Shown: positions 1-61,178 of the stretch, one piece after another
Layout: each line of letters opens with the position of its first letter
Numbering within the stretch: the stretch's first letter is position 1
Assembly (NCBI GenBank): GCA_964016885.1
Contig: OZ024742.1
Span: forward strand, 33,170,001 to 33,234,000
Source: Eledone cirrhosa
Lineage: Eukaryota
Length of the DNA: 64,000 nt
Direction of reading: 5' to 3'
The notes under the pieces: generated by a model
Database searches by the model: none
What the model was told of the DNA's origin: nothing
What the model saw: the letters and a program-made list of their open reading frames with translations, nothing else
Position numbers and translations under genes: made by a program

Positions 1-1810
1 TCACTGCCATGCAACATTGCTGTTCGTATGCAGGCATCATACAACCTGCCTTTCATTTTTAGGGAGAACCCTTTAGTGGCTAATAGTGGTATAAGCTCTC
101 TGAACTTTTTCCATCCAGTTCTGATTCTAGCTACTGTACTTTCAGAGCACCCTCCCCCACTGCTGATTTTGTCACCCAGGTAACGGAAGCTGTCCACTAT
201 TTCTATAGAACCCTCTGCGCAATTGAAAGAGCTAGTATTTTGTGGGCACTTGCTGCTACTTATTGCACCAGAGGACCGGCCACATGTAAAATCTATGTTC
301 TTAGTTAGCTTACCTGTGATCCCACTACATCTTTTATGCACCCATACTTTGCATTTGGGACATAAAATGGAGTTTCTACCTACGCCTTTCCTACACACTG
401 AGCATGGCCATTTCCCGGAAGGGACCGTCGCCTTATTTTCTTTCCTACAAACTAGAACTTTAGTCTTAGCCAGGTTAATTTTAAGGCCTTTTGATTCTAG
501 GCTGTGCTTCCATGTTTGGAATTTCTTCTCTAGCTCGGCCATTGATTCAGCTATGAGCATTAGATCATCTGCGTATAGGAGTTCCCATGTGCAGCCGGTC
601 TTGAACTCCACTGTTATAACCTGAAGGGCAATAATAAATAGTAGGGGGCTAAGAACAGAGCCCTGATGAACACCAACTTTTACACTAAACTCTTCACTAT
701 ATTCGTTGTTAATTCTAACCTTGCTGACTGTTTCTTTATACATGGCTTGTATAGCTCTCACAAGCCATTCGTCAACACCTAGTTTTCTAAGAGCCCACCA
801 GATAATGGAACGGGGGACTCTGTCGAAGGCTTTCTCCAAGTCAACAAAAGCTAAGTATAGGGGTTTACTTTTAGCTAGGTACTTCTCCTGTAGTTGTCGT
901 ACAATGAAAAGAGCGTCTGTGGTACTTTTGCCTGACACAAAACCGAACTGCATTTCATCTAGATCAATTCTCTCTCTGATTAGTTGCGCTATTACTTTTT
1001 CCGTGACCTTCATGACCTGGTCGATTAATTTAATGCCTCTATAGTTACTCCTATCTAGGGCATCTCCTTTACCCTTGTAACAGTTAATGATGATGCTGCT
1101 ACGCCAGTCCTTCGGAACAACCCCATTCTGTATGACTTGGTTTACTATCCGGGTGACCCACCGTTCCAGAGGCTTTCAGCATCTCAGCAACTATTTCCGA
1201 AGGCCCAGCCGCCTTACCCATCTTCATATCTTTGATTGCCTTACTTATTATACTACCCTCGACTAACACTGCCGGTCCCTCTATTGGGTCGATGTGGGGG
1301 AGACTGTCTTTCTCCCATTTATTCTCCTCATTTAGAAGCCTTTCGTAGTGACACTTCCAAGCTACCTTCTTATCAGCGTCAGTGATGGCAAGTACGCCAT
1401 CATCATTAAGTACACACTTCTCCCCGACAATATCACGGTTTTCCTTGACACATTGCCTAGCAATCCTGAACACCTCACGTTTTTGGTCCTCACGTTGTAG
1501 AACATGCTTGAACTTTCTTTCCTCTGCTTCCCTTCTTGCGAAGTACACTTGTCTCCTAGCTTCCCTCCTGGCCACTTGATAGTCTTCTCTACTTCCTCCA
1601 TCCCGCCATACTTTCCAAGCCTGCTTTTTGGCCTTAATTGACTCCTCCACCTTACTGTTCCACCACCATGTTACTCTCCTCCTACCTACAGGCCTGCTCC
1701 AGCCACAGACTTCGTCTGCCGCCGTCAGCAGGTTTGCTTTCAGTAATTCCCATTGTTCCTCTATATTATCTGACTCTAATTGCTCTTCCTTACTTGAAAG
1801 CATCAAGTAA
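1..1810 (-). mobile_element. RTE-clade non-LTR retrotransposon, 5'-truncated; linker plus RT, frameshift near 1160; runs off the window start
   Basis: ORF 1099-1806 has TWWWN and KAAGPSEI..EMLK. After a frameshift the minus strand reads VPKDWRSSIIINCYKGKGDALDRSNYRGIKL..QFGF..AFVDLEKAFDRVP..QGSVLSP..LYADDL, followed by a Cys/His cluster. Confidence 0.93.
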
Positions 1811-7155: not shown

Positions 7156-7204
7156 TTGCAGTGGGGGGAGTGGGGGCATATTGTCTATATGCTTCAGCTT
7201 GTAC

Positions 7205-8603
7205 CCATGGGAGGTCGGGTATTCTGTATTACTGCGTGATGCCAGAAGTCACGGTCGTGTGTCATTGCCTTTGAGAGGTGTAATTGGGTAAGGTCGGCTT
7301 TTATCACCTCATCCCAGGTCATCTTGGGTCTCCCCACTCCGCGGTTTCCATCAACTTCTAGTGCTCTGCACCTTTTTATGCAGCTGTCATCCTTCATACG
7401 CATCACATGTCCATACCAGCGCAACCGCCTCTCCTGCACACACCATTTGATTCCTCTTATGCTCAGTCTCTCTCTCAATTCATTTATGCTTTGTCGTTCC
7501 CGTATACTACTGTTACACATCCATCGGAGCATGCAGGCTTCGTTTCTCTCTAATCTACGTAAGTCTTCCACCTTCAGCGCCCAGGTCTCACTACCATGCA
7601 ACATTGCTGTTCGGATACACGCATCATACAGTCTGCCTTTCATTCTGAGGGAGAAGCCTTTTGCAGCTAGCAGTGGTAGTAGTTCCCTAAACTTCTTCCA
7701 TCCCGTTCTTACCCTAGTTATTGTACTTTCTGAACACCCACCTCCGCTGCTAATTCGGTCACCTAGGTAGCAGAAGCTGTCTACTGTTTCTACAGAGCCC
7801 TCCCAGAGATTGGTGGTACTTGTTTCCTGTGGCTGTTTGCTGCTTGCTGTCTCATCACAGCTGCTGCATATGAAGCCTACATTCTTAATTAAGCTTCCTG
7901 AGATCCCGCTACATCTCTTGTGTACCCATTGTTTGCATTTGGGGCAGAGAATGGAGTTCCTACCTACACCTTTCCTACATACTGAGCAAGGCCATTTCCC
8001 TGAGGGGATCTGGGTTCTGTTTTCTCGTCTACTTACAAGGACCTTAGTCTTTGTCATGTTGATTTTGAGACCCTTTCTTTCTAGTCCCTGCTTCCAAGTT
8101 TGGAATTTATTCTCTAGTTCTACCATAGATTCAGCTATGAGTGCGAGGTCATCAGCATACAGGAGTTCCCATGGGCATTTGGTCTTAAACTCCTCCGTTA
8201 TTGCCTGCAGGACTATGATGAACAGGAGGGGGCTAAGAACAGAGCCCTGGTGGACCCCAACCTGTACGCTAAATTCCTCGCTATACTCATTGCTAATCCT
8301 AACTTTGCTGACTGCTCCCCTATACATGGCTTGTACCGCTTTCACAAGCCATTCATCTACTCCTAGTTTTCTAAGAGCCCACCAGATTACAGCACGTGGA
8401 ACTCTGTCAAAGGCTTTCTCAAGGTCGACAAATGCCAAGTAGAGTGGCTTACTTTTAGCTCGGTACTTTTCCTGTAATTGCCTCACAAGGAAGAGGGCAT
8501 CAGTGGTGCCTCTTCCTGGTACAAACCCAAATTGCATCTCGTCTATTTCCACCCGGTCCCTAATCAACTGTGCTATAACTCTTTCTGTTACTTTCATGAC
8601 CAT
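7205..8603 (-). mobile_element. RTE-clade LINE, 5'-truncated, open RT-to-C-terminus frame (469 aa)
   Basis: QFGF, AFVDLEKAFDRVP, QGSVLSP, LYADDL, FCYLG, MLHGSETW, RLRWYGHV, R.VGRPKMTW; internal C4HC3-like cluster. Confidence 0.95.
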
Positions 8604-8815
8604 ATATATATAATATATAATCTGTTACTTTCATGACCATATATATATAATATAAATATATATAATATATATATGTATATAATATATACATATATAATAT
8701 ATACATATATATATATAATATATACATATATAATATATACATATATAATATATACATATATATATATATAATATATACATATATATATATATAATATATA
8801 TATATAATATATACA

Positions 8816-17122: not shown

Positions 17123-17458
17123 GTAAGTCCCTTCCTCCCATACTCTTGCACAAGATTATCAGCCCTCTCTGTACTTATCAATCTCAGGAGCCTAACTTGT
17201 CCACATAGCTGCCAGCCATCCTGTGTAATGAGAGCTACCTTCACAATCTAGCACCTGCTTTCATTTCACTCTCCTTCCCTCCCTGAGTGATAACCTCCTC
17301 CCAACCCACCCACTCCCATCACAAACTCTTTCTGTCCAGCTAAGGACACAGCTACTGCACTAGTGTTAATGCCACACTGGAATGCATGCAGTGCATTCTG
17401 CATTTGATGGCAATCGTGTTCTGATAATATGGACCCATCCCACTATGTATAGTGGAGG

Positions 17459-19052
17459 TGCTGGTGCTACAATAAAATGCACCCATCACACTCAGTAAAG
17501 TTGTAGTGTTGGTGCTGCAATAAAATGCACCCACCACACTCAGTAAAGTTGTAGTGTTGGTGCTGCAATAAAATGCACCCATCACACTCAGTAAAGTTGT
17601 GGTGCTGGTGCTGCAATAAAATGCACCCACCACACTCAGTAAAGTTGTGGTGCTGGTGCTGCAATAAAATGCACCCACCACACTCAGTAAAGTTGTAGTG
17701 CTGGTGCTGCAATAAAATGCACCCATCACACTCAGTAAAGTTGTGGTGCTGGTGCTGCAATAAAATGCACCCATCACACTCAGTAAAGTTGTGGTGCTGG
17801 TGCTGCAATAAAATGCACCCATCACACTCAGTAAAGTTGTGGTGCTGGTGCTGCAATAAAATGCACCCATCACACTCAGTAAAGTTGTGGTGCTGGTGCT
17901 GCAATAAAATGCACCCACCACACTCAGTAAAGTTGTGGTGCTGGTGCTGCAATAAAATGCACCCATCACACTCAGTAAAGTTGTGGTGCTGGTGCTGCAA
18001 TAAAATGCACCCATCACACTCAGTAAAGTTGTGGTGCTGGTGCTGCAATAAAATGCACCCATCACACTCAGTAAAGTTGTGGTGCTGGTGCTGCAATAAA
18101 ATGCACCCATCACACTCAGTAAAGTTGTGGTGCTGGTGCTGCAATAAAATGCACCCACCACACTCAGTAAAGTTGTGGTGCTGGTGCTGCAATAAAATGC
18201 ACCCACCACACTCAGTAAAGTTGTGGTGCTGGTGCTGCAATAAAATGCACCCACCACACTCAGTAAAGTTGTGGTGCTGGTGCTGCAATAAAATGCACCC
18301 ACCACACTCAGTAAAGTTGTGGTGCTGGTGCTGCAATAAAATGCACCCATCACACTCAGTAAAGTTGTGGTGCTGGTGCTGCAATAAAATGCACCCATCA
18401 CACTCAGTAAAGTTGTGGTGCTGGTGCTGCAATAAAATGCACCCATCACACTCAGTAAAGTTGTGGTGCTGGTGCTGCAATAAAATGCACCCACCACACT
18501 CAGTAAAGTTGTGGTGCTGGTGCTGCAATAAAATGCACCCATCACACTCAGTAAAGTTGTGGTGCTGGTGCTGCAATAAAATGCACCCACCACACTCAGT
18601 AAAGTTGTAGTGCTGGTGCTGCAATAAAATGCACCCATCACACTCAGTAAAGTTGTGGTGCTGGTGCTGCAATAAAATGCACCCACCACACTCAGTAAAG
18701 TTGTGGTGCTGGTGCTGCAATAAAATGCACCCATCACACTCAGTAAAGTTGTGGTGCTGGTGCTGCAATAAAATGCACCCACCACACTCAGTAAAGTTGT
18801 AGTGCTGGTGCTGCAATAAAATGCACCCACCACACTCAGTAAAGTTGTGGTGCTGGTGCTGCAATAAAATGCACCCATCACACTCAGTAAAGTTGTGGTG
18901 CTGGTGCTGCAATAAAATGCACCCATCACACTCAGTAAAGTTGTGGTGCTGGTGCTGCAATAAAATGCACCCACCACACTCAGTAAAGTTGTGGTGCTGG
19001 TGCTGCAATAAAATGCACCCACCACACTCAGTAAAGTTGTGGTGCTGGTGCC
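17459..19052. repeat. 48-bp minisatellite, about 33 copies, derived from a SINE internal segment
   Basis: Unit ctggtgctgcaataaaatgcaccc(a/t)cacactcagtaaagttgtggtg, period 48 (17701 to 17749); runs directly into SINE 3' body and tail at 19053-19235. Confidence 0.95.
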
Positions 19053-19268
19053 AGAATAGAACACACCGAATACATCCTGTAAAGTGGTTGGTGTTAAGAA
19101 GGGTATCGAGCTGTAGAAATCATGTGAAACTGGAATGTATGAATAAACTGTGGTCATCTGACCTATCTAGTCTCAGAGTGTGAGAACTCGTCTAACCCAT
19201 GCCTGCATGGGGCACGGATATAAAATAGTGACGATGGTTTTCATATCTATACATACACACATATATAT

Positions 19269-19514
19269 ATAATTACAACAGTGACATAAACAGGTACTTA
19301 AGTTTCGTTGAGCCAACTCATTCAGCCTGTCAAGAAAAATAAAAATAAAGAGGGCGATCTTTATTTTTATTATGACAGGCTGAATGAGTTGGGGTCCAGA
19401 GCCCAACGAAACTTAAGTACCTGTTTATGACACTGCTGTAATTATTTATACCAAACTTGTCCTACGGACTGAGTGCTCTTACCATTGGATATTTCTACCA
19501 AACTTTTACTACAG
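19269..19514 (+). mobile_element. Fold-back Penelope-like remnant with a hammerhead in each arm
   Basis: Arms about 19269-19350 / 19359-19445, tail to about 19514, (TA)n flanks. Confidence 0.82.
19375..19424 (+). ncRNA. Type-I hammerhead ribozyme
   Basis: ACAGG-CTGAATGA-GTTGGG gtccagag CCCAAC-GAAA-CTTAAG-TA^-CCTGT: perfect helices I and II, palindromic helix III, GUA triplet, one extra nt in the core. Confidence 0.85.
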
Positions 19515-19557
19515 TATATATAATATATATGATATATATAAAGACTTATAATAATTA

Positions 19558-19742
19558 TTTCTACCTTTGGCACAAGGCCAGCAATTACCCCAGTGTATTA
19601 CTGGTGCTTTATTTTATCGATCCCGTAAGGATGAAAGGCAAAGTTAACCTTGGCGGGATTTGAACTCAGACCATAAAGGGCCGTAACTCTTTGCTGCAAA
19701 GCATGGCGTCCGACCCTCTATCGATACTGCCAATCCACCGCC
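19558..19742 (-). mobile_element. tRNA-derived SINE, family A
   Basis: Near-identical to 3592-3778 and 13129-13315. Confidence 0.88.
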
Positions 19743-20480: not shown

Positions 20481-21781
20481 TATATATATATATATATGAA
20501 AGAGTCAGGACCCCAGTGGCTGAGCTGTTGCCGTTTCAACAGCTAGTTCCAGTCTGGTAGGGCATTTTAGCTGCAGGGAGACAAACATGTTTGTTTCTGG
20601 GTGGGGCTGGATGTCATATGAAGTGGTGTGGAAGGGGAGGAGGAAGTAGTGAAAGAGTGAGAAGTAGGAGGAGGAGGATGGAAAAGAAGAAGAGGAAGAT
20701 GGAGAAGAAATAAGGAAGTAATGAGAAAAAGAAGGAAAAAAGGAAATGAAAGAGAGATAAGAGAAAGAGAGATAAAAGGAAGATGAAGGAAGAGGTAGAA
20801 AAGAACAAAGAAAGGAAGGGAAGGAAGGAAAGAGAAGGAATTAGAAAATGAAGGAAAAAACGAAGTGAATGAAAAAGGAGAGATAAAGAAAGATGACCAG
20901 GGGGGGGGGGGTACGGAAGAGGAAGAGTGAGAGATAGAAGAAATAAAGAAGCAAAGGAAGAAAGAGGGAAGCAGTAAAAGAAAGTGGAATGAGGGGAAGT
21001 GAGAAAGATAGAAAGCGATAGAGTGAAAGTTGTAGACCGAAAGTTCTGTAAATGGATACACATGTATACACTCGCTGTCCCACACAAATGTATACATATT
21101 ATTATTAGAATTCTGACATAGTATGTATACATTTTTGGGGAACACCTTGTGTCTATATATATATATAAATAAAATGAGTCCTTCATCAGTAATCTTCCAG
21201 CCTTCATTGGTATTTCATCGCTTTAAAGATCATATACCTCTGGTTGGTGCGAGCAACGGCTAAAGAAAGTCGTTGGGACACGTAAATAGGGCGAACGAGC
21301 GAGACAGTAAACAAACAAACAAATATGGTAATGCAACGAAATATATATAAGGAAAGAAAGAGAGACAGCCAGAGACGGAGAAGAGAAAGATTGGCTATCT
21401 GTGGTGCTGATAGTGACTGACCAGTCGCTATTCTACAGCATGTTGTCAAAGATTCAGCAGAGATTTCCAGAATGTTATTTACATAAATACACACACTCAC
21501 ATGTGCATGCACACAGACATACACTCGAAGAGTTATTTAGGTAAATACGTTCACATACATAGAATCATGTACAGAGCCACAAAATGATAATCACACAGAT
21601 AAAACACACACACACACACACACATACATAGATACCTACATACATACATATCTACCTATATACAATACATACATACATATCTACCTACATACATACGTAC
21701 ATACATATCTACCTATATACAATACATACATACGTACACACATACAATACATACACACATATAAAACATACATACATGGAT

Positions 21782-22366
21782 ACATGGTGGCTGCCAACTC
21801 GTTTTCGAGTACGGCCACTACTTTATATCCATGTAGGAGAACCCCTACCGATGCGCTGAACGAGTGTGACTTTTTAGTCCAGCCAGCGACTTGAAAACTC
21901 TGGTACAAACACTACACCTGTGACAATTATTGACACATACTGCTGGGCCCATGGTACCATGTGACGACAAGTGCAGGGAGATCTCCAGATATAAAGCAAT
22001 GCCAGTGCCGTGAGCAAAGGCACTGCACAAAGCCAGTCCCACTCTCTTAATCAAGATGATATTTACCAAAAAGAAGAACAAGTCAACATCATTGGATACC
22101 ATCAGGGTTGCAGGTGTTATATCAGAGTTTTCCTTCTCCTAGAATTCTGCCTTGACAAAGGCTAAGGGGTCATCTCTCCCGGTGATTTTGGATGGCCATT
22201 GACTCTTAAGAGCTCCTTTGCCCTTTGACAGGTTTTGTTTTTAGTCCTGCAGGATGTCCAAAGTCACCCTCCTCACCAAGAAACCTTGGTGGGGTTGCCA
22301 GTTTAGTTGCCAACGACTCGACCATGAGACAGGTTGTACTGGGATACATGTTACCAGTAGCACCAA
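21782..22366 (-). mobile_element. Non-autonomous RTE-derived retroposon (5' UTR-like part fused to a C2H2-finger 3' end) in (CATA)n
   Basis: Near-identical inverted copy at 52736-53310; ctaggagaaggaaaactctg motif; CSVCTRVFKSLAGLKSHTRSAH; terminal hairpin ctcgaaaacgag. Confidence 0.75.
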
Positions 22367-25893: not shown

Positions 25894-26215
25894 CCTCAAG
25901 GAAATAAACTTGTTCAGTGTGTAGGAAAAGTCTAAGTAGAAATTCAATCCACTGTCCTAAATGCAAACTTTGGGTACACAAAAGATGTAGTGGGATCTCA
26001 CGTAGTTTAGTTAAGAATGTAGGTTTTACATGTAGCCATTGTACTGGGTCAGTAAGTAGCAAACAACCACAGGAAACAAGAGCTATCAAATTCTGGGAAG
26101 GTTTGGTATACAGCTTCTGCTACCTAGGTGACCAAATTAGGAGTTGGGTGTTCTGAAAGTACAGTAGCCAGAGTGAGGATGGGATGGAAGAAGTTCAAGG
26201 AACTACTATCAGTGC
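25500..26215 (+). mobile_element. Degraded RTE fragments (Cys/His insert region present twice), split by a TA-rich insertion
   Basis: CRKSLSRNSIHCPKCKLWVHKRCSGIS..FCYLGDQI at 25910-26200; a more decayed similar piece at 25500-25740. Confidence 0.8.
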
Positions 26216-31219: not shown

Positions 31220-31261
31220 TTATCATCATCTTCGTTTAACGTCCATTTTCCACGCTAGCAT

Positions 31262-31345
31262 GTTACTCCTATCTACCTGTCACACACAACTACAATATAT
31301 ATATATATATATATATATCTACTCCTGTCTACCTGCCACACAACT

Positions 31346-31382
<37 letters not shown>

Positions 31383-34300
31383 ACTCCTGTCTACCTGCCA
31401 CACAACTACAGTATATATACACACCTGTCCTCCTGTCACACACAACTACAATATATATATACACACCTGTCTACCTGTCACACACAACTACAATATATAT
31501 ATATACACACCTGTCCTCCTGTCACACACAACTACAATATATATATATGCACACCTGTCTACCTGTCACACACAACTACAATATATATATACACACCTGT
31601 CCTCCTGTCACACACAACTACAGTATATATATACACACCTGTCCTCCTGTCACACACAACTACAATATATATATATACACACCTGTCCTCCTGTCACACA
31701 CAACTACAATATATATATACACACCTGTCCTCCTGTCACACACAACTACAGTATATATATACACACCTGTCCTCCTGTCACACACAACTACAATATATAT
31801 ATATACACACCTGTCCTCCTGTCACACACAACTACAATATATATATACACACCTGTCTACCTGTCACACACAACTACAGTATATATATATATACACCTGT
31901 CCTCCTGTCACACACAACTACGATATATATATATACACACCTGTCTACCTGTCACACACAACTACAATATATATATACACACCTGTCTACCTGTCACACA
32001 CAACTACAATATATATACACACCTGTCTACCTGTCACACACAACTACAATATATATACACACCAGTCTACCTGTCACACACAACTACAATATATATATAT
32101 ACACACCTGTCCTCCTGTCACACACAACTACAATATATATATATACACACCTGTCTACCTGTCACACACAACTACAATATATATATACACACCTGTCTAC
32201 CTGTCACACACAACTACAATATATATATACACACCTGTCCTCCTGTCACACACAACTACAATATATATATATACACACCTGTCCTCCTGTCACACACAAC
32301 TACAATATATATATATACACACCTGTCCTCCTGTCACACACAACTACAGTATATATATACACACCTGTCCTCCTGTCACACACAACTACAATATATATAT
32401 ACACACCTGTCCTCCTGTCACACACAACTACAATATATATATACACACCTGTCTACCTGTCACACACAACTACAATATATATACACCTGTCTACCTGTCA
32501 CACACAACTACAATATATATACACTCCTGTCTTCCTGTCACACACAACTACAATATATATATATACACACCTGTCTACCTGTCACACACAACTACAATAT
32601 ATATACACACCTGTCTTCCTGTCACACACAACTACAATATATATATATACACACCTGTCTACCTGTCACACACAACTACAATATATATATACACACCTGT
32701 CTACCTGTCACACACAACTACAATATATATACACACCTGTCTACCTGTCACACACAACTACAATATATATACACACCAGTCTACCTGTCACACACAACTA
32801 CAATATATATATATACACACCTGTCTACCTGTCACACACAACTACAATATATATATATACACACCTGTCCTCCTGTCACACACAACTACAGTATATATAT
32901 ACACACCTGTCTACCTGTCACACACAACTACAATATATATACACACCTGTCTACCTGTCACACACAACTACAATATATATATATGCACACCTGTCCTCCT
33001 GTCACACACAACTACAATATATATATACACACCTGTCCTCCTGTCACACACAACTACAGTATATATATACACACCTGTCCTCCTGTCACACACAACTACA
33101 ATATATATATATACACACCTGTCCTCCTGTCACACACAACTACAATATATATATACACACCTGTCTACCTGTCACACACAACTACAATATATATACACAC
33201 CTGTCCTCCTGTCACACACAACTACAATATATATATACACACCTGTCCTCCTGTCACACACAACTACAATATATATATACACACCTGTCCTCCTGTCACA
33301 CACAACTACAATATATATACACCTGTCTACCTGTCACACACATATACAATATATATATATACACCTGTCCTCCTGTCACACACAACTACAATATATATAT
33401 ACACACCTGTCCTCCTGTCACACACAACTACAATATATATATACACACCTGTCTACCTGTCACACACAACTACAATATATATATACACACCTGTCCTCCT
33501 GTCACACACAACTACAATATATATATATATACACACCTGTCCTCCTGTCACACACAACTACAATATATATACACACCTGTCTACCTGTCACACACAACTA
33601 CAATATATATACACTCCTGTCTACCTGTCACACACAACTACAATATATATACACACCTGTCTACCTGTCACACACAACTACAATATATATATACACACCT
33701 GTCCTCCTGTCACACACAACTACAATATATATATACACACCTGTCTACCTGTCACACACAACTACAATATATATACACACCTGTCTACCTGTCACACACA
33801 ACTACAATATATATATACACACCTGTCTACCTGTCACACACAACTACAATATATATATACACACCTGTCTACCTGTCACACACAACTACAATATATATAC
33901 ACTCCTGTCTACCTGTCACACACAACTACAATATATATACACACCTGTCCTCCTGTCACACACAACTACAGTATATATACACACCTGTCTACCTGTCACA
34001 CACAACTACAATATATATATACACACCTGTCTACCTGTCACACACAACTACAATATATATATACACACCTGTCTTCCTGTCACACACAACTACAATATAT
34101 ATATACACACCTGTCCTCCTGTCACACACAACTACAATATATATATACACACCTGTCTACCTGTCACACACAACTACAATATATATATACACACCTGTCT
34201 ACCTGTCACACACAACTACGATATATATATATACACCTGTCTACCTGTCACACACAACTACAGTATATATATACACACCTGTCCTCCTGTCACACACAAC

Positions 34301-37300
34301 TACAATATATATATACACACCTGTCTACCTGTCACACACAACTACGATATATATATATACACCTGTCTACCTGTCACACACAACTACAATATATATATAC
34401 ACACCTGTCCTCCTGTCACACACAACTACAATATATATATACACACCTGTCCTCCTGTCACACACAACTACAATATATATATACACACCTGTCCTCCTGT
34501 CACACACAACTACAATATATATACACTCCTGTCCTCCTGTCACACACAACTACAATATATATACACACCTGTCCTCCTGTCACACACAACTACAATATAT
34601 ATACACTCCTGTCCTCCTGTCACACACAACTACAATATATATATACACACCTGTCCTCCTGTCACACACAACTACAGTATATATACACACCTGTCCTCCT
34701 GTCACACACAACTACAATATATATATATATACACCTGTCTACCTGTCACACACAACTACAGTATATATATACACACCTGCCCTCCTGTCACACACAACTA
34801 CAATATATATATATACACACCTGTCTACCTGTCACACACAACTACAATATATATACACCTGCCCTCCTGTCACACACAACTACAATATATATACACTCCT
34901 GTCCTCCTGTCACACACAACTACAATATATATATATACACCTGTCCTCCTGTCACACACAACTACAATATATATACACACCTGTCCTCCTGTCACACACA
35001 ACTACAATATATATATATATACACACCTGTCTACCTGTCACACACAACTACAATATATATATATACACCTGTCTTCGTGTCACACACAACTACAATATAT
35101 ATATATATACACACCTGTTCTCCTGTCACACACAACTACAATATATATATACACACCTGTCCTCCTGTCACACACAACTACAATATATATATACACACCT
35201 GTCTACCTGTCACACACAACTACAATATATATACACTCCTGTCCTCCTGTCACACACAACTACAATATATATATACACACCTGTCCTCCTGTCACACACA
35301 ACTACAATATATATACACACCTGTCTACCTGTCACACACAACTACAGTATATATATACACCTGTCTACCTGTCACACACAACTACAATATATATATATAC
35401 ACACCTGTCCTCCTGTCACACACAACTACAATATATATATACACACCTGTCCTCCTGTCACACACAACTACAGTATATATATACACACCTGTCCTCCTGT
35501 CACACACAACTACAATATATATATACACACCTGTCCTCCTGTCACACACAACTACAATATATATATACACACCTGTCCTCCTGTCACACACAACTACAAT
35601 ATATATATACACACCTGTCCTCCTGTCACACACAACTACAATATATATATACACACCTGTCCTCCTGTCACACACAACTACAATATATATATACACACCT
35701 GTCTACCTGTCACACACAACTACAATATATATATACACACCTGTCCTCCTGTCACACACAACTACAATATATATATATATACACACCTGTCCTCCTGTCA
35801 CACACAACTACAATATATATACACACCTGTCTACCTGTCACACACAACTACAATATATATACACTCCTGTCTACCTGTCACACACAACTACAATATATAT
35901 ACACACCTGTCTACCTGTCACACACAACTACAATATATATATACACACCTGTCCTCCTGTCACACACAACTACAATATATATATACACACCTGTCTACCT
36001 GTCACACACAACTACAATATATATATACACACCTGTCTACCTGTCACACACAACTACAATATATATATACACACCAGTCTACCTGTCACACACAACTACA
36101 ATATATATACACACACCTGTCCTCCTGTCACACACAACTACAATATATATACACACCTGTCCTCCTGTCACACACAACTACAGTATATATATACACACCT
36201 GTCTACCTGTCACACACAACTACAATATATATACACCCCTGTCTACCTGTCACACACAACTACAATATATATACACTCCTGTCCTCCTGTCACACACAAC
36301 TACAATATATATACACACCTGTCCTCCTGTCACACACAACTACAGTATATATACACACCTGTCTACCTGTCACACACAACTACAATATATATACACTCCT
36401 GTCTACCTGTCACACACAACTACAATATATATACACACCTGTCCTCCTGTCACACACAACTACAGTATATATACACACCTGTCTACCTGTCACACACAAC
36501 TACAATATATATACACTCCTGTCTACCTGTCACACACAACTACAATATATATACACACCTGTCTACCTGTCACACACAACTACAATATATATATACACAC
36601 CTGTCCTCCTGTCACACACAACTACAATATATATATACACACCTGTCTACCTGTCACACACAACTACAATATATATATACACACCTGTCTACCTGTCACA
36701 CACAACTACAATATATATATACACACCTGTCTACCTGTCACACACAACTACAATATATATACACACACCTGTCCTCCTGTCACACACAACTACAATATAT
36801 ATACACACCTGTCCTCCTGTCACACACAACTACAGTATATATATACACACCTGTCTACCTGTCACACACAACTACAATATATATACACTCCTGTCTACCT
36901 GTCACACACAACTACAATATATATACACTCCTGTCCTCCTGTCACACACAACTACAATATATATACACACCTGTCCTCCTGTCACACACAACTACAGTAT
37001 ATATACACACCTGTCTACCTGTCACACACAACTACAATATATATACACTCCTGTCTACCTGTCACACACAACTACAATATATATACACACCTGTCCTCCT
37101 GTCACACACAACTACAGTATATATACACACCTGTCTACCTGTCACACACAACTACAATATATATACACTCCTGTCTACCTGTCACACACAACTACAATAT
37201 ATATACACTCCTGTCCTCCTGTCACACACAACTACAATATATATACACACCTGTCCTCCTGTCACACACAACTACAGTATATATACACACCTGTCTACCT

Positions 37301-37695
37301 GTCACACACAACTACAATATATATATACACACCTGTCTACCTGTCACACACAACTACAATATATATATACACACCTGTCTACCTGTCACACACAACTACA
37401 ATATATATATATACACACCTGTCCTCCTGTCACACACAACTACAATATATATACACACCTGTCTACCTGTCACACACAACTACAATATATATATATATAC
37501 ACACCTGTCCTCCTGTCACACACAACTACAATATATATATATACACACCTGTCTACCTGTCACACACAACTACAATATATATATACACACCTGTCTACCT
37601 GTCACACACAACTACAATATATATATATACACACCTGTCCTCCTGTCACACACAACTACAATATATATATATACACACCTGTCTACCTGTCACAT
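31262..37695. repeat. 6.4-kb minisatellite, unit about 37-45 bp: acacctgtc(ta/ct)cctgtcacacacaactaca(a/g)(ta)n
   Basis: Roughly 150 or more tandem units differing in TA number; precursor-like units at 31020-31100. Confidence 0.97.
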
Positions 37696-37752
37696 ATTCA
37701 CATATTAACTACATTGTTACTATGTATACAATCTTTTTTTATTCATCTAAGG

Positions 37753-38105
37753 CAGAGGTCCTCAAAGTCCCCCCCCCACCCACCGAGTGGTGTTAAGAAG
37801 CTCCAGAGGGAGGCTGGCGTCTAAGGAGGTGGTGGAGGGGTGGTAGAGATGATAAAATAGTACAGTAAATATCAAATGATATATTATATATAAGTATAGG
37901 AAAATAAAAATTATATAATATTTATTTATACATAGTATATATTATATTATTTATTATATATAAATTAACGGTTTTATTTATTATACATTATTTACAATTT
38001 GCATGTAGGCAGGTCTCTCTGGAAATAGGGTTGGGAGGGAGGGGACGCCGAGGGCATTACGTGCCGTGAGGGGGGGGGGGGGTCCAAAAAGTTTGAAAAC
38101 CTCCG
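37753..38105. mobile_element. hAT-type MITE
   Basis: TIRs CAGAGGTCCTCAAA / TTTGAAAACCTCCG; 8-bp target duplication atctaagg (37745-37752) / atctaaag (38106-38113). Confidence 0.8.
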
Positions 38106-52735: not shown

Positions 52736-53310
52736 GGTGCTACTGGTAACATGTATTCCAGTACAACCTGTCCCATGGCCGGGTCGTTGGCGACTAAACT
52801 GGCAACCCCACCAAGGTGAGGAGGGTGACTTTGGACATCCTGCAGGACTAAAAACAAAACCTGTCAAAGGGCAAAGGAGCTCTTAAGAGTCAATGGCCAT
52901 CCAAAATCACCGGGAGAGATGACCCCTTAGCCTTTGTCAAGGCAGAATTCTAGGAGAAGGAAAACTCTGATATAACACCTGCAACCCTGATGGTATCCAA
53001 TGATGTTGACTTGTTCTTCTTTTTGGTAAATATCATCTTGGTTAAGAGAGTGGGACTGGCTTTGTGCAGTGCCTTTGCTCACGGCACTGGCATTGCTTTA
53101 TATCTGGAGATCTCCCTGCACTTGTCGTCACATGGTACCATGGGCCCAGCACTATGTGTCAATAATTGTCACAAGTGTAGTGTTTGTACCAGAGTTTTCA
53201 AGTCGCTGGCTGGATTAAAAAGTCACACTTGTTCAGCGCATCGGTAGGGGTTCTCCTACATGGATATAAAGTAGTGGCCGTACTCGAAAACGAGTTGGCA
53301 GCCACCATGT
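52736..53310 (+). mobile_element. Non-autonomous RTE-derived retroposon, inverted twin of 21782-22366
   Basis: Only scattered substitutions and one 8-nt indel relative to the first copy; (GTAT)n flanks. Confidence 0.78.
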
Positions 53311-53448
53311 ATGTATGTATGTAAATATGTATGTATATATTTTGTATTGTCCCCTACATGTCGGCCCTTGTGGCTAATAAATGAAATCATTATTATTATT
53401 GTTATTAATGTATGTGTGTGTGTATATGTGTATGTATGTGTGTATGTA

Positions 53449-56627: not shown

Positions 56628-59600
56628 TTTCTTTATTTACCATAAAGGCATAAAAAGAAGGGACAAATACAAAGGGAGAGTTTACATAAAACCGAGTAAA
56701 AAGGGTATAAAATGAAAATAATCGAAAACAACCTCAAAAGGGAGGGACGTGATGGGGGTTGCACACACCCCCGAAAAAGTGTGCAATCCTTTGCCCGGGG
56801 AGCACATGGAGAAGGTGCTCCCCTCTCCTTCACTTCTTTACCTACAGGATGGTATACAGAGAAGGCCCATTTACACGAGCCATTCTCGCCACTATCACCC
56901 ACCTTTCATAAAACTGCCTGTGGCCAAGCACCTCTCTCTCTATTCTTATCCTTCTTCCGAAGTGATATCGGAAGAAGTAGACCAGACTATGGCCAGAGAG
57001 GAAGTTGCCTGACCTCAGACCTTTCAATCGTGTCCACCAAACAACCTCTTTCAACATGGCTATTACGCACAGAAAAACCGCCTTTGCTTCCTTTGTGAAG
57101 AGGGGAGGCGGTTTGATTGTCATCACGGACTCGGCGGTCAATTGAATCGGCGCCACCCGCGACAGCAGTTGTTCGGCGTAGCCCCACAGATCAGCCACGC
57201 CCGGACATTGCACCAATGCGTGCGCAACGGTTTCTTCGTGATGCACGCATCTAGGGCAAATCTTTTTCGAGGGATCCCTGCCCGGGCGCCCGTGTCTGTA
57301 GAGCTTTTCTCGAACGGGTAGAGCCCCCCGGTAGCACTGCCAGGCCAGTGACTTCTGGAAGTTGTCCATTGGTCCCGGGCTGAAAGTCCTACCGAACAGG
57401 CTGGCCAGTTCGTCCTCTTCCATGTCCAGCGACTCTCCAAGGGTGTCATCGGCCCTGCTAACCACCAGCCCTCTATAGAATGACGAGGTGGATTCTCCAC
57501 CGATGGCCGGGTCCGCTTGCCAGAGAGCCCTGAGCGCCTGAGCACACTCAGTGTGCCAGTGGCCCAGTTTTCCGGATCTTTGCTTGACCCAGGACTGCAG
57601 CTCGGTGAGCGAGACGAGTCTCGGAAAGGCTTGTCTCACGAACGGAGCCCACACCGGTTGACCAGTGAGGAATACCTGTAGGTGCCGTAGCCTTAATGCG
57701 TGCCTATGCATCATCAACCACGGCATCCCCAGCCCTCCTTTCGAAGGTTGTTGGCAGCAGATGGATCTTCTCACCATAGGAGGGCGCTTTTTCCAAAGAA
57801 ATTGAAAGAGCATGCGTTCCATGGTGGTGAGTGTTTCCTTAGGGCAAGGCACGACAGTCAGGCGGTAGTAGGTGACGGACGCTATGTAAATGTTCGCCAC
57901 CTCCGCCTGACCTTTCAGGGACAGCTTACACTTGGCCCATTTCTGGGTCAGTGCAAACACCTTGCTCGTAACCTTGCCCCAGTTCTTTTCCACCTGGAGG
58001 TCCGGTCCAAACCAGACCCCAAGCAACTTCACTGGGCCTTCCGTCCAGTGTCCGACGACACCGTCGGGAGGCATCGGTCTGCCTCTCCCCGTTCCGAGTT
58101 GCAGCCCGATGGATTTTTCCCGGTTCAGTTTCGCTCCTGACAACCTTTCGTATTCCTCCAGTAAGGTGCCTATCGCCTCGATCTCCGAGTCGGTCGATAC
58201 CATTACTGTTACGTCATCGGCATAGGCCGACACCGCTTTGCTCAATCCTGGTTCCAGGGGGATACCCTGCAACAACTCCAACTTCCTCAGTAAAGGCTCG
58301 AGAGTCAATACATACAGAAGGGAGGAGAGAGGGCACCCCTGTCGAATGGATCGTGTGATTTCGAACGGCTTCGAAAGGTAGCCGTTCACCTTGATCCTAG
58401 AACAGATGTGGTTGCTATGTAAAGCAGTGATCCAGCCTCTGAAAACAGGGCCGAACCCAGCCGCCGCTAGCACCGCATCCAGGTAACCATGGTCGACCCT
58501 ATCGAACGCCTTAGACTGATTCAAGTTGATCAGGGCCCCACCAAAGCCGGGTTTGTTGCCAACCCTCTCTATGATGTATCGCATGAGGTGGAGGTTGTCG
58601 TGAATGGACCTGGATGGGATAGCACATGTCTGCGCATCTCCCACCAGGCTACTCACGACAAGCACCAACGTCTTTGCTAACACCTTGGCCAAAATCTTTA
58701 ACTCTGTGTTTAGCTATGGGCCGAAAATTATTTATACTATCCCCCTTGTTCTCGTCCTTCCTCACCAGCGAGACTACGCCCTTGGCTACAGAACAAGGAA
58801 TTCTCCCGTTCTGCTGCCAATTATAGTAGACTGCTTCAAGGAGTTCGGAGAAGAAGACCGGCATTGCCAAATAAAGTTTGTAAGGTATACCATCGAGACC
58901 TGGAGATTTGCGTTTGCTGCATTGGCTCAGCGCATCCTCGCTCTCATCAGTCGAGATTGGTCCCTCGCAGGATTCTGCCTCTTCGCTCAAGAGACGCGGC
59001 AGGCCGTCGAGGTATGGACAGAAATCCACGTCCCCGCCCGGACCCCCGCCTCCCCAGAACAATCGGGCAAAGTGCCTTTGAAAGGGATCGCACATCTGCT
59101 TAGGCTCCCGGATCACCCGCCCATCCTCGTCTTGCAAAGACCGGATGGTGGATCAATTTCCACTCTTAGCTTCTGTCACGTGGGCCCAGCCAACGGCTTT
59201 GGCCCCCTCATTACCTAGAGCACGTATTTTACTTCGAATGACGCAGCCTTCGTGCTTTGCATCGAAAAACTGGCTCAAGGCCGTCCCCGATGCCAGCACT
59301 CTGGCCACATCTTCGCTCTTGATTGCCTCTTCTAATTTACCTGTTAATTCTTTCTCGTTCCTATTCCTATCGGCAGCTAACATCTTGCTATAACTTATTG
59401 ATTCTGTTCTAATCTCTCTTTTGAGAGATGCCCACCATCGGTTGTTGACAATTGCACCCATCAACCTCTCCTTAACTAATCTGCTAATTCGGTCTCTGTA
59501 AGCCTCTTTTGCCGGTAAAGACAAATTAAGTTTCCAGTAACCGGGACCCTGTCTATGTGTTCTCTCAAGGTTGACTACGCAGGTCACTAATTTGTGATCT

Positions 59601-61178
59601 GTATAGCCAACCGTGAGCATTTCTGGACAGCTTAATATGTCCCTATCCTTACTTCTAACTAAGAATCTATCTAAGTGGTTCGTCCAAGTCCAGGTTGGCA
59701 CAGTTGGAAAATCTAGTCGATATCTATCGACCAAGTTAAACAGTCGAGTAACCCCTTGAGGCTGTTGCACCCCCCTCTATTAGGAGATGCTCCTGCATAG
59801 TCCTAACGTGCATCTAGGATGTCATTCCAGTCCCCCGCTAGAAGCAGGGAACGCGACGTTCCCAGAAAAGTCTCCAGACGCTGGAAGAAGTCGGGTCGTT
59901 CAGCTCCGAAAGGGGAGTAGACGGCGACCAGTCTCAAGGCCGCACCTCCACTACTGCCAACATCTAGCACCAACAAACGACCTTCCGGGTCCGAGTGAAC
60001 AACCTGTACGGCGAGACCCAGGTGTTTTTCCAGCAGTACGACAACCCCACCCCCACCTCCAGGTTGACAGAGAGATGCGTGCACCTCAAAGTCATCGAAG
60101 GTAAGGGTCAGCTGCCGCACGACACTGATCCGAGTCTCACAGATAACCATTACATTTATACCACGTGACCTGAGGTCATTTAGAAGCTTTGCTTGCTTCC
60201 AAGTTGAGCCCAGGCCACGTGCATTCAAACATCCTACTCTTAACACATCCATGTGGGCGGCAAAGCCAAAGGAGAGTGTAGAGACTTACCTTTCTGCTTC
60301 CCAGGGTTCGGGTCGCACGACTTCCATGGGGTCGGGGGTGTTGGGTGAAGGGGTGTCTTGTGGTGGTGTGGGGTCGTCAGTGTGTGATGGGGTTGGGGTG
60401 TTTGGAGTTGTGTTGGGGAGGGGAAGGGGAGGGGGAAAGCTTTTTAGGAGGACGCGGTTTATGGGTTTGACAGAGGGTGGTCCTACTTCCTCCTTAAAAT
60501 CCTTTTTTAGTTTTTGGAAGAGGTTCATTGGGATCTTTATTAATTTTAAATGTGGGTAGTTTTCTGAAGAAACAAAGTTTACCCCTTCGGTTTGTACCGA
60601 AGGATTATTGTTTATGAGTTCATTTAATTTATTATTGTTTCTGTTGATGTAAGTATAGTGTAATGTCTTTTTTTCGGATGGTGTGAGTGTTTCGAAGAGG
60701 GGAAGGGCAGGTTTGGTTTTGTTTGTTGCTGGAGGGGTGTTTTGTGTTTTGTTGGATTGTGTTGACATTTGGGTAGGGGTTGTTTGTCCTTGTGTGTTTT
60801 GCACATGCTTTCTTTTTTTCCTTTTGATTTGTCTGAAGGACTCCGTTTCTTCCTCCGAATTCGTTGGGTTATCTTCAGTGTTGGAGGGAAGAGGTATGTT
60901 TGCTGGTAATGTTTCCGTGTTGGTTTTCTTTGTGGGGGAGATGGATGTCACTATGTTAGACTGTGTTGTGTGTTGTGGCTGCGGTGGTTGTGTTGTTTTA
61001 TTGAGTGAGGGGTTGGGTGGGACTGTGTTTTGTTTTTGGATAATGTGTTGTGTCTGTTTGTGTTGTGGTGGTGGTGTAGTTTTACTGAGGGACGGGTTGG
61101 GTGGGACTGAGTTTTGTTGTTTGTTTATCTGTTGTGGTGGTGGTGGAGTTGGTGTTGGTAGCAGGGTTTTCTTCTTGT
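56628..61178 (-). mobile_element. Tx1/L1-clade non-LTR retrotransposon, 5'-truncated, frameshifted
   Basis: ORF1 remnant (to 60286). ORF2 has APE (CLNARGL, CET, AVYSP, AGDWN, LDRFLV, TDHK, GPGYWKLN), RT (KSPGLDG, QSKAFDRV, RQGCPLS, AYADDV, LLGVWFG) and a C-terminal CPRC..ETVAHALVQC; the 3' UTR ends aataaagaaa. Confidence 0.93.
56842..60252 (-). pseudogene. Tx1-like ORF2 (APE-RT-CCHC) broken into four frames
   Basis: ORFs 59803-60252, 59153-59770, 58649-59137 and 56842-58692 are collinear pieces of one polyprotein. Confidence 0.9.

What the first reader, a model, noticed from the sequence alone, without database searches (positions are those of the whole stretch)
19269..19514. Hairpin element with hammerheads on both strands that differ in helix II
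The plus arm has ACAGG-CUGAAUGA-GUUGGG(8 nt)CCCAAC-GAAACUUAAGUA^CCUGU. The minus arm has the same core with a shortened helix II (GUUG gcu CAAC). Both share an unusual CUGAAUGA core with one extra nucleotide, and a palindromic ACUUAAGU helix III typical of dimer-acting minimal hammerheads. A transcript from either strand would contain one ribozyme and its antisense copy, so hairpin formation could switch cleavage off (inference).
Basis: partly seen in the sequence, partly recalled or inferred. Interest (0 to 1): 0.7.

Follow-up and report, generated by a model that had tools for sequence, protein, structure and literature searches.

The report
Head-to-head Penelope stub, odd hammerhead core
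This DNA hairpin is two short copies of the end of a very common animal repeat joined head to head, most likely a dead insertion made by a Penelope-type jumping gene, so its two self-cutting-RNA motifs are likely a by-product that is predicted to stay folded shut rather than act as a switch; the one unusual point is an extra base in the motif's core that most related copies appear to share.

Summary
The hairpin and both hammerhead motifs are real (fold z = -19.7; motif in 0 of 100 shuffles). They are two 5'-truncated copies of one high-copy repeat end (1,530 contigs laid in one run; also in a second species), joined head to head, with a ~65-70-nt tail on one arm and a 10-bp repeat in TA-rich DNA on both sides. 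That is the published layout of Penelope-like insertions; opposite-strand hammerhead pairs were reported in 2014, and this scan noted such stubs before in sharks and in this genome. The switch idea fails: on either strand the antisense arm is transcribed first and fold-back wins by 54-59 kcal/mol; all 11 other junctions shown differ and none shows two whole cores. The short helix II is unstable (+0.2 kcal/mol) and not listed as a family variant, so it is probably decay. CUGAAUGA appears to be the family majority; 0 of 56 published Penelope-type cores have it, and the same kind of insertion (A6a) was reported to give low activity. No coding parent was found, so autonomous pLTR versus retrozyme parent is open. 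Ordinary structure, minor core variant.

The parts
19264..19273 (+). Left copy of a 10-bp direct repeat TATATATAAT (likely target-site duplication); its last 5 nt overlap the end of the left arm
   Evidence: low-complexity sequence, so moderate weight
19269..19354 (-). Left arm: inverted, 5'-truncated copy of the repeat end, without tail
   Evidence: family's short 3' end at 19443-19450 equivalent runs into TA (tables 6, 7)
19289..19331 (-). Minus-strand type I minimal hammerhead motif: core 19325-19318, shortened helix II 19317-19307 (9-nt deletion plus one substitution against the right arm), GAAA 19306-19303, palindrome 19303-19296, cut site after 19295
   Evidence: helix II +0.2 kcal/mol, pair probability 0.01
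19349..19360 (.). Fold-back centre, axis 19354|19355, no spacer; two mismatches away from a perfect palindrome; family sequence upstream of this point reads ..GGCCATCTTT in blurred loose-end consensus lines
   Evidence: (symmetry), table 7 (agreement 0.53-0.56); ancestral GGCC axis is inference
19358..19379 (+). U-rich tract ending in CAG|G inside helix I; resembles a splice acceptor, as at the D. virilis Penelope intron end
   Evidence: 72% pyrimidine right arm, 82% left arm; PMC4209133; splicing not tested
19355..19445 (+). Right arm: 5'-truncated copy of the repeat end
19374..19425 (+). Plus-strand type I minimal hammerhead motif: core CUGAAUGA 19380-19387 (A6a insertion), helix II 19388-19407, GAAA 19408-19411, palindrome 19411-19418, cut site after 19419
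   Evidence: helix II -8.5 kcal/mol, pair probability 0.86-0.97; monomer helix III probability under 0.01
19446..19514 (+). One-sided tail of about 65-70 nt, part of the family sequence, between the family's two 3' ends
   Evidence: loose ends into TA runs behind 19450 (46, 38, 34 contigs) and behind 19522 (83, 96, 43 contigs, 130 reads)
19515..19524 (+). Right copy of the 10-bp direct repeat TATATATAAT

Best explanation
This is a head-to-head pair of 5'-truncated copies of one abundant hammerhead-bearing repeat end, most likely inserted in one event by Penelope-type reverse transcriptase and endonuclease, so the two motifs are likely a by-product and are predicted to be silent at this locus. 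Inferred steps: (1) the endonuclease cut TA-rich DNA on both strands about 10 nt apart; (2) one 3' end primed cDNA at the distal start (tail end, 19514) and the other at the proximal start (19441-19450), where the RNA matches the overhang at 9 of 10 letters; (3) both cDNAs ran through the uncleaved hammerhead and stopped about 25 nt upstream of the core; (4) they joined at a short self-complementary word, which leaves a palindrome without spacer; (5) the arms then decayed separately, one losing 9 nt of helix II. In the parent RNA the motif would work, if at all, as a dimer through the 8-bp palindromic helix III or with protein help, and the A6a core would make it slow.
For: Shown: anatomy, symmetry and flanking repeat. 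Family of at least 1,530, 1,629 and 734 contigs in runs X1, X2 (one sample) and X4 (second species label) and 698 reads in X5. Two family 3' ends, both running into TA (tables 6, 7). 11 of the 15 joints shown are opposite-strand, each with its own second-arm start between 19404 and 19477 (7 further joints not shown). The right arm and tail differ from the majority letter at 7 listed places (19369, 19401, 19430, 19436, 19458, 19465, 19484); at 19369, 19430 and 19436 the left arm has the majority letter, so these changes break the hairpin and none is compensated. The common helix III variant 19415 A>G (66, 56, 73 contigs; 57 of 323 reads) keeps the dimer duplex (-5.8 against -6.6 kcal/mol) whereas C or U would not (-0.7, -2.4). 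Best 10-mer match of the overhang in 19355-19514 is at 19441 (9 of 10; next 7 of 10). Published: inverted truncated copy plus one-sided tail and microsatellite bias (10.1101/2021.04.23.441226); 8-10-bp TSDs and palindromes at inverted junctions (PMC3846280); dual min-HHRs on opposite strands 100-700 bp apart (PMC4209133); both strands nicked and extended, two internal RT starts define the tail, hammerhead cleavage not needed (PMC11167929).
Against: No RT/GIY-YIG ORF was linked to this sequence: none among 28 ORFs and 148 of 174 candidate frames in the window, and the open 32-codon frame after the motif hit only 4 unrelated repetitive proteins. The tail is about twice the 30-40 nt usually quoted. 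In the anole element RT starts were not homologous to the cut DNA, whereas here one start is; TA-rich sequence also makes both the TSD and that match easier to get by chance. The core departs from the published consensus twice (extra base after A6, none after A9). No compensatory change in helix I or II is visible, and several G>A changes break stems or G12 in a share of copies.
Confidence: 0.82

Rival explanations
1. Same insertion mechanism, other parent: the repeat end belongs to a non-coding retrozyme-like monomer that borrows Penelope enzymes, not to the pLTR of an autonomous element. This changes the family label, not the reading of the hairpin.
For: No coding parent found. Earlier notes on this genome describe 310-, 420- and 450-nt hammerhead monomers with Penelope-type ends (unchecked AI notes). 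10.64898/2026.07.22.740005 proposes that retrozymes derive from pLTRs (passages). Both alleles at 19414-19416 are stops in the frame of the core AUG.
Against: No tandem monomer at this locus. The best-supported loose ends behind the tail are TA runs in all 4 runs (543 rows not shown, and contigs collapse identical arrays). The U-rich tract and CAG|G in helix I match the Penelope intron-end layout. The motif lacks the canonical loop-loop build described for coral retrozymes.
Confidence: 0.3
2. Same parent, other route to the hairpin: a single cDNA or antisense template folded back at the short central palindrome and primed its own copy, instead of two cDNAs primed from the two target strands.
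For: The centre has no spacer and lies two changes from a perfect palindrome; PMC3846280 reads such junction palindromes as self-priming on an antisense template.
Against: Self-priming gives equal arms unless a second step trims one; the arms end at the family's two standard 3' ends, and the 11 other junctions shown are asymmetric (symmetric ones may be under-reported in contigs). Both strands are extended in vitro by a PLE protein.
Confidence: 0.3
3. The hairpin is itself the mobile unit (MITE-like DNA element or a viroid-like RNA with a ribozyme in each polarity) and spreads as such.
For: Near-perfect fold-back with a motif on each strand; flanking direct repeat.
Against: Depth is not confined to the hairpin, the tail is one-sided, 31-36 contigs per run continue upstream of the centre into other family sequence, and all 11 junctions shown differ. 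The two motifs are one sequence duplicated.
Confidence: 0.05
4. One reading: fold-back is used to turn cleavage on and off, and the two helix II forms are tuned for different activity.
For: Each strand's transcript does hold a motif and its complement; 6 of 56 published motifs have a 3-nt loop II and one of them a 4-bp stem, so the short form is not impossible.
Against: No on state: antisense arm first, gap 54-59 kcal/mol; no cis partner for the dimer; arm differences break pairs and are not compensated; the short helix is not predicted to form; no gene was found around the locus.
Confidence: 0.03

Closest known systems
Insertion units of endonuclease-positive Penelope-like elements (Pen2a_Av, PMC3846280; general scheme in 10.1101/2021.04.23.441226 / PMC8557442 Fig. 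2 legend)
   Same: Inverted 5'-truncated copy joined at the 5' end, tail on one end only, 8-10-bp TSD, AT-rich or microsatellite target, palindrome at the junction.
   Different: Here both copies are cut down to about 90 nt, no ORF is present, and the tail is about 65-70 nt instead of 30-40.
Minimal type I hammerheads of metazoan PLEs (Cervera and De la Pena 2014, PMC4209133)
   Same: 5-6-bp helix I, U-rich 5' flank, G10.1-C11.1, GAAA, palindromic helix III, NUH site (GUA), opposite-strand pairs (S. mansoni, Cotesia Fig. S4A), intron-end-like site in helix I.
   Different: Two bases between A6 and G8 (0 of 56 in Fig. S3) and no base between A9 and G10.1 (present in 54 of 56). No cephalopod is among the 56.
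A6a core insertion (Perreault et al. 2011, PMC3088659)
   Same: One extra base after A6 of the CUGA turn.
   Different: Reported as a rare natural variant with low activity; here it appears to be the majority form of a family with over a thousand copies in two species. The text of Fig. S6 did not let me tell which host carried A6a.
Poseidon element of Anolis (PAc; Frangieh et al. 2024, PMC11167929)
   Same: Two 3' ends a tail apart, AT-rich target, insertion copied through an uncleaved hammerhead.
   Different: PAc RT starts were not homologous to the cut DNA; here the proximal end matches the flank at 9 of 10 letters. PAc's ORF starts at stem II; here the AUG in the core meets a stop after 10 codons.
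Metazoan non-LTR retrozymes (PMC7229834; 10.64898/2026.07.22.740005)
   Same: Non-coding, abundant, type I hammerhead with weak helix III.
   Different: They are tandem 150-450-bp monomers giving circular RNA; this locus is a single fold-back with no tandem unit.

Membership tests
EN+ Penelope-like insertion unit | Inverted 5'-truncated copy joined head to head | tested here: met
   11 more such joints
EN+ Penelope-like insertion unit | Tail on one end only, between two standard 3' ends | tested here: met
   tables 6, 7; length about 65-70 nt, longer than the 30-40 nt quoted
EN+ Penelope-like insertion unit | Short TSD in AT-rich target | tested here: inconclusive
   10-bp direct repeat at both ends, but low complexity and no empty allele seen
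EN+ Penelope-like insertion unit | Terminal repeat belongs to an element with an RT plus GIY-YIG ORF | tested here: inconclusive
   none in the window; tail frame has no real homologue; no whole genome held
PLE minimal type I hammerhead | CUGANGA core | tested here: not met
   CUGAAUGA, one extra base after A6; 0 of 56 published rows
PLE minimal type I hammerhead | Unpaired base between A9 and G10.1 | tested here: not met
   absent here; present in 54 of 56 published rows, absent in Marsupenaeus and Saccoglossus(2)
PLE minimal type I hammerhead | G10.1-C11.1, GAAA, NUH site, short helix I, U-rich 5' flank | tested here: met
PLE minimal type I hammerhead | Palindromic helix III, unstable as monomer, stable as dimer | tested here: met
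   monomer P under 0.01; duplex -6.6 kcal/mol; double-hammerhead fold within 1.6 kcal/mol of the cofold minimum for two right arms; family variant keeps pairing
PLE minimal type I hammerhead | Self-cleavage (weak, dimeric or protein-assisted) | not testable with these tools
   needs an in vitro assay
Rfam hammerhead families | Covariance-model match | tested here: not met
   0 matches at gathering score in 64 kb; no hammerhead among 14 matches at E up to 10
Non-LTR retrozyme | Tandem 150-450-bp monomers with one hammerhead each | tested here: inconclusive
   not at this locus; family level not excluded because contigs collapse arrays
Non-LTR retrozyme | Circular RNA expression | not testable with these tools
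   no RNA holder listed
Fold-back unit that spreads as such (MITE-like or two-polarity ribozyme RNA) | Many copies share one centre and both ends | tested here: not met
   11 of 11 shown junctions differ; many contigs continue upstream of the centre

The most novel reading that the evidence does not exclude
This family keeps a deliberately slowed hammerhead (A6a core) whose real job is to pair two element RNAs through the palindromic helix III, so that two different RNA molecules prime on the two strands of one cut; the short-helix-II arm here would then be the copy of a second, variant RNA, and hairpins like this one would record RNA dimers during Penelope insertion.
Probability: 0.1. Interest if true: 0.6.

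Novelty: new variant of a known kind. Interest (0 to 1): 0.24.

Why it matters
The structure is ordinary for Penelope-type insertions and has been described. Two small things are of use. First, a family with over a thousand copies appears to carry a core (CUGAAUGA) that standard CUGANGA descriptors and Rfam miss, and that was reported to be slow; if it still cleaves as a dimer or with protein, descriptors need widening, and if it does not, it supports the view that the fold is kept for something other than cutting. Second, stubs like this keep both priming sites and the junction in under 270 bp, so a genome-wide set could test whether the two arms come from one RNA or two, which is an open point of Penelope transposition.

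Tried and rejected
Rfam at gathering score and by E-value: only generic hairpin matches (FasX, miRNA models) far below their cut-offs. No whole genome is held. No second family copy in the window; the ACTACAGTATATATA matches at 31-37 kb belong to an unrelated 42-nt satellite. Pattern scans: 6 metagenome loci, none with helix I or II, taken as chance; 0 in viral contigs. Pfam on 28 ORFs and on 148 of 174 candidate frames: LINE-type RT with PHD, RT with zf-RVT, an AP endonuclease piece and one C2H2 finger, no GIY-YIG. The 32-codon frame 19417-19512 against 1.84 billion proteins: 4 hits, all repetitive and unrelated. No RNA holder listed; this says nothing on expression. ADAR scar, a lead from earlier notes: of 7 listed differences from the majority letter on the plus strand 1 is A>G and 2 are T>C, so no bias. 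Second arms starting at the cut site: 3 of 11 within 19417-19425, P = 0.14, not significant. A fixed stop point for stubs, another lead: not seen, junctions vary. Literature: no paper held hammerhead plus CUGAAUGA-type terms at the thresholds used (0 papers; 3 papers, only PMC3088659 relevant); octopus plus hammerhead gave 7 listings, none on this family by title or abstract start. Subscription papers, Repbase and Dfam were not searched, and bioRxiv supplements were closed, so the family or its core may be on record there.

Full report
Setting. The window is repeat-rich animal-type DNA: microsatellites, a 48-nt satellite ending at 19051, several SINE-like repeats and LINE fragments. No whole genome is held. 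I took it for an octopus genome from recall of the repeats; earlier notes on the same genome say so too (unchecked). I did not test this.

Observation. The arms 19269-19445 fold to -104.4 kcal/mol, z = -19.7, 0 of 200 shuffles as good. A descriptor with helix I of 5 or more and helix II of 4 or more pairs finds one motif per strand in the window and none in 100 shuffled windows. Rfam has no hammerhead match. The isolated arms fold only slightly better than shuffles, as expected for motifs this small.

Anatomy. The two motifs point away from the centre, so the copies are joined 5' to 5'. The axis is 19354|19355 with no spacer: one pair, two mismatches, then unbroken pairing. The right arm goes on for about 65-70 nt without a partner (19446-19514). 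TATATATAAT lies at 19264-19273 and at 19515-19524. Its reverse complement matches the element at 19441-19450 in 9 of 10 letters, the best match in the unit (next best 7 of 10), which is where the short arm ends. A U-rich tract ending in CAG|G leads into helix I on both arms.

Family. Seven runs were listed, none on record as RNA. Four of them were laid on the right arm and tail at 80% likeness: 1,530 and 1,629 contigs from two runs of one sample, 734 from a run with another species label, and 698 RAD reads. Depth sums are not copy numbers, but the family has at least this many distinct contigs. It has two 3' ends, at 19443-19450 and at the tail end, and both run into TA. Between 31 and 36 contigs per run in X1 and X2 continue upstream of 19360 or 19371 into other sequence, so the centre of this hairpin is a truncation point and not the family's start. 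Of 15 joints shown (7 more hidden), 11 switch strand; the geometry makes them head-to-head, all 11 second-arm starts differ (19404-19477), and none lies upstream of the core. Symmetric hairpins may be under-reported in such contigs.

The core. Among the 40 difference rows shown (56 hidden) none falls on 19380-19386, and the table of left-out or put-in letters, which has a single row at a 3% threshold, lists no loss of an A there. So CUGAAUGA appears to be the majority in all four runs. Limits: the laying selects look-alikes, and one blurred loose-end line (X1, 25 contigs, agreement 0.56) reads with a single A, while the matching lines in X2, X4 and X5 keep two. A CUGAUGA subfamily is not excluded. 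Loop II varies in a block (19396, 19397, 19399, 19401). The frequent 19415 A>G keeps the intermolecular helix III through U.G pairs. I saw no compensatory pair in helix I or II, and G>A changes at 19374, 19379, 19392, 19393, 19408 and 19423 damage the fold in a share of copies, as in decaying repeats.

The helix II difference. The left arm lacks 9 nt and has one substitution, leaving a 4-bp stem with a GCU loop at +0.2 kcal/mol and pair probability 0.01, against -8.5 and 0.86-0.97 on the right. No 9-letter loss is listed at 3% or more. Where the majority letter is known, the left arm has it and the right arm has drifted (19369, 19430, 19436), so the arms look like identical copies that decayed separately, about 4% on the right arm and tail (7 listed places in about 160 nt). 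Published motifs include 6 of 56 with a 3-nt loop II.

The switch. In a read-through RNA of either strand the antisense arm comes first, and the free fold beats the best fold with a forced hammerhead by 53.9 and 58.8 kcal/mol. The monomer's helix III has probability under 0.01, and each RNA has only one sense copy. Splicing at CAG|G would remove the antisense arm but also most of helix I (inference). So the locus is predicted to be off in every state I can draw. No host gene was found around it, and nothing is known of its transcription.

Mechanism. Shown: the parts above. Inferred: a staggered cut of about 10 nt in TA-rich DNA, cDNA primed from both 3' ends at the family's two start points, both cDNAs running through an uncleaved hammerhead, and joining at a short self-complementary word. 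PMC11167929 (parts 1-2 of 4 read) shows that a PLE protein nicks and extends both strands, starts at two internal sites that bound the tail, and does not need hammerhead cleavage; there the hammerhead cut only with protein present, and the starts were not homologous to the target. PMC3846280 (passages and Discussion) favours self-priming on an antisense template for junction palindromes; this remains a rival.

Comparison. PMC4209133 (main text parts 1-2 of 4, supplement parts 1-2 of 3) reports dual minimal hammerheads on opposite strands 100-700 bp apart in Schistosoma and an opposite-strand copy in a Cotesia element, palindromic helix III, no cleavage by the monomer and weak cleavage by dimers. 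Its conserved extra base lies after A9 (54 of 56 rows), and 0 of 56 rows have two bases between A6 and G8. 10.1101/2021.04.23.441226 (12 passages) gives the inverted copy, one-sided 30-40-bp tail and microsatellite bias. PMC3088659 (passages, section 8, Fig. S6 text) names a natural A6a insertion with low activity. PMC7229834, PMC6155905, PMC8967140 and 10.64898/2026.07.22.740005 were seen as passages only. So the unit works like a Penelope insertion and the motif works like a PLE minimal hammerhead, but strict membership is not shown: the core fails the consensus, and no coding parent was linked. A retrozyme parent is a fair rival (notes).

Verdict. Real, explained, of a known kind; the scan has noted such stubs before in other genomes and in this one. 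What is left is a core variant that seems family-wide and that I did not find in print for Penelope-type motifs (subscription papers, repeat databases and bioRxiv supplements not covered). Interest 0.24.

Noticed in passing
window 19384-19514 (+): The AUG inside the core opens a frame of 43 codons that is broken only once, by a stop in helix III; both common alleles there (TAA, TGA) are stops. The 32 codons after it found no real homologue.
   Followed up: partly
window 19504-19514 (+): The tail ends in a pyrimidine-rich run and CAG, which looks like a second splice acceptor; may be chance.
   Followed up: no
   Followed up: partly
run X4 joints: Three second arms start at 19419, 19421 and 19425, at or just after the predicted cut site, all in the second species; P = 0.14 over 11 joints.
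   Followed up: partly
window 19546-19742 and 19070-19245: Two SINE-like repeats flank the element; the right one has 9 further matches in the window at 80-92% identity, the left one 8 shorter or weaker ones.
   Followed up: partly
window 17424-19051: 48-nt satellite, 33.9 copies at 97% match, ending 200 nt left of the hairpin.
   Followed up: no
window 31260-37800: About 6.5 kb satellite of roughly 42-nt units with a variable TA run; it yields long stop-free frames (over 2,000 codons) that are artefacts of the repeat.
   Followed up: partly
window 21769-22277 and 52815-53323: 509-nt inverted pair, 99% identical, 30.5 kb apart; the first copy overlaps a frame with one weak C2H2 finger match.
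   Followed up: no
window 3-1175 (-), 7197-8624 (-), 25908-26153 (+), 56845-60285 (-): LINE fragments: RT followed by a PHD finger (two copies and a lone PHD piece) and an AP endonuclease, RT, zf-RVT element.
   Followed up: partly
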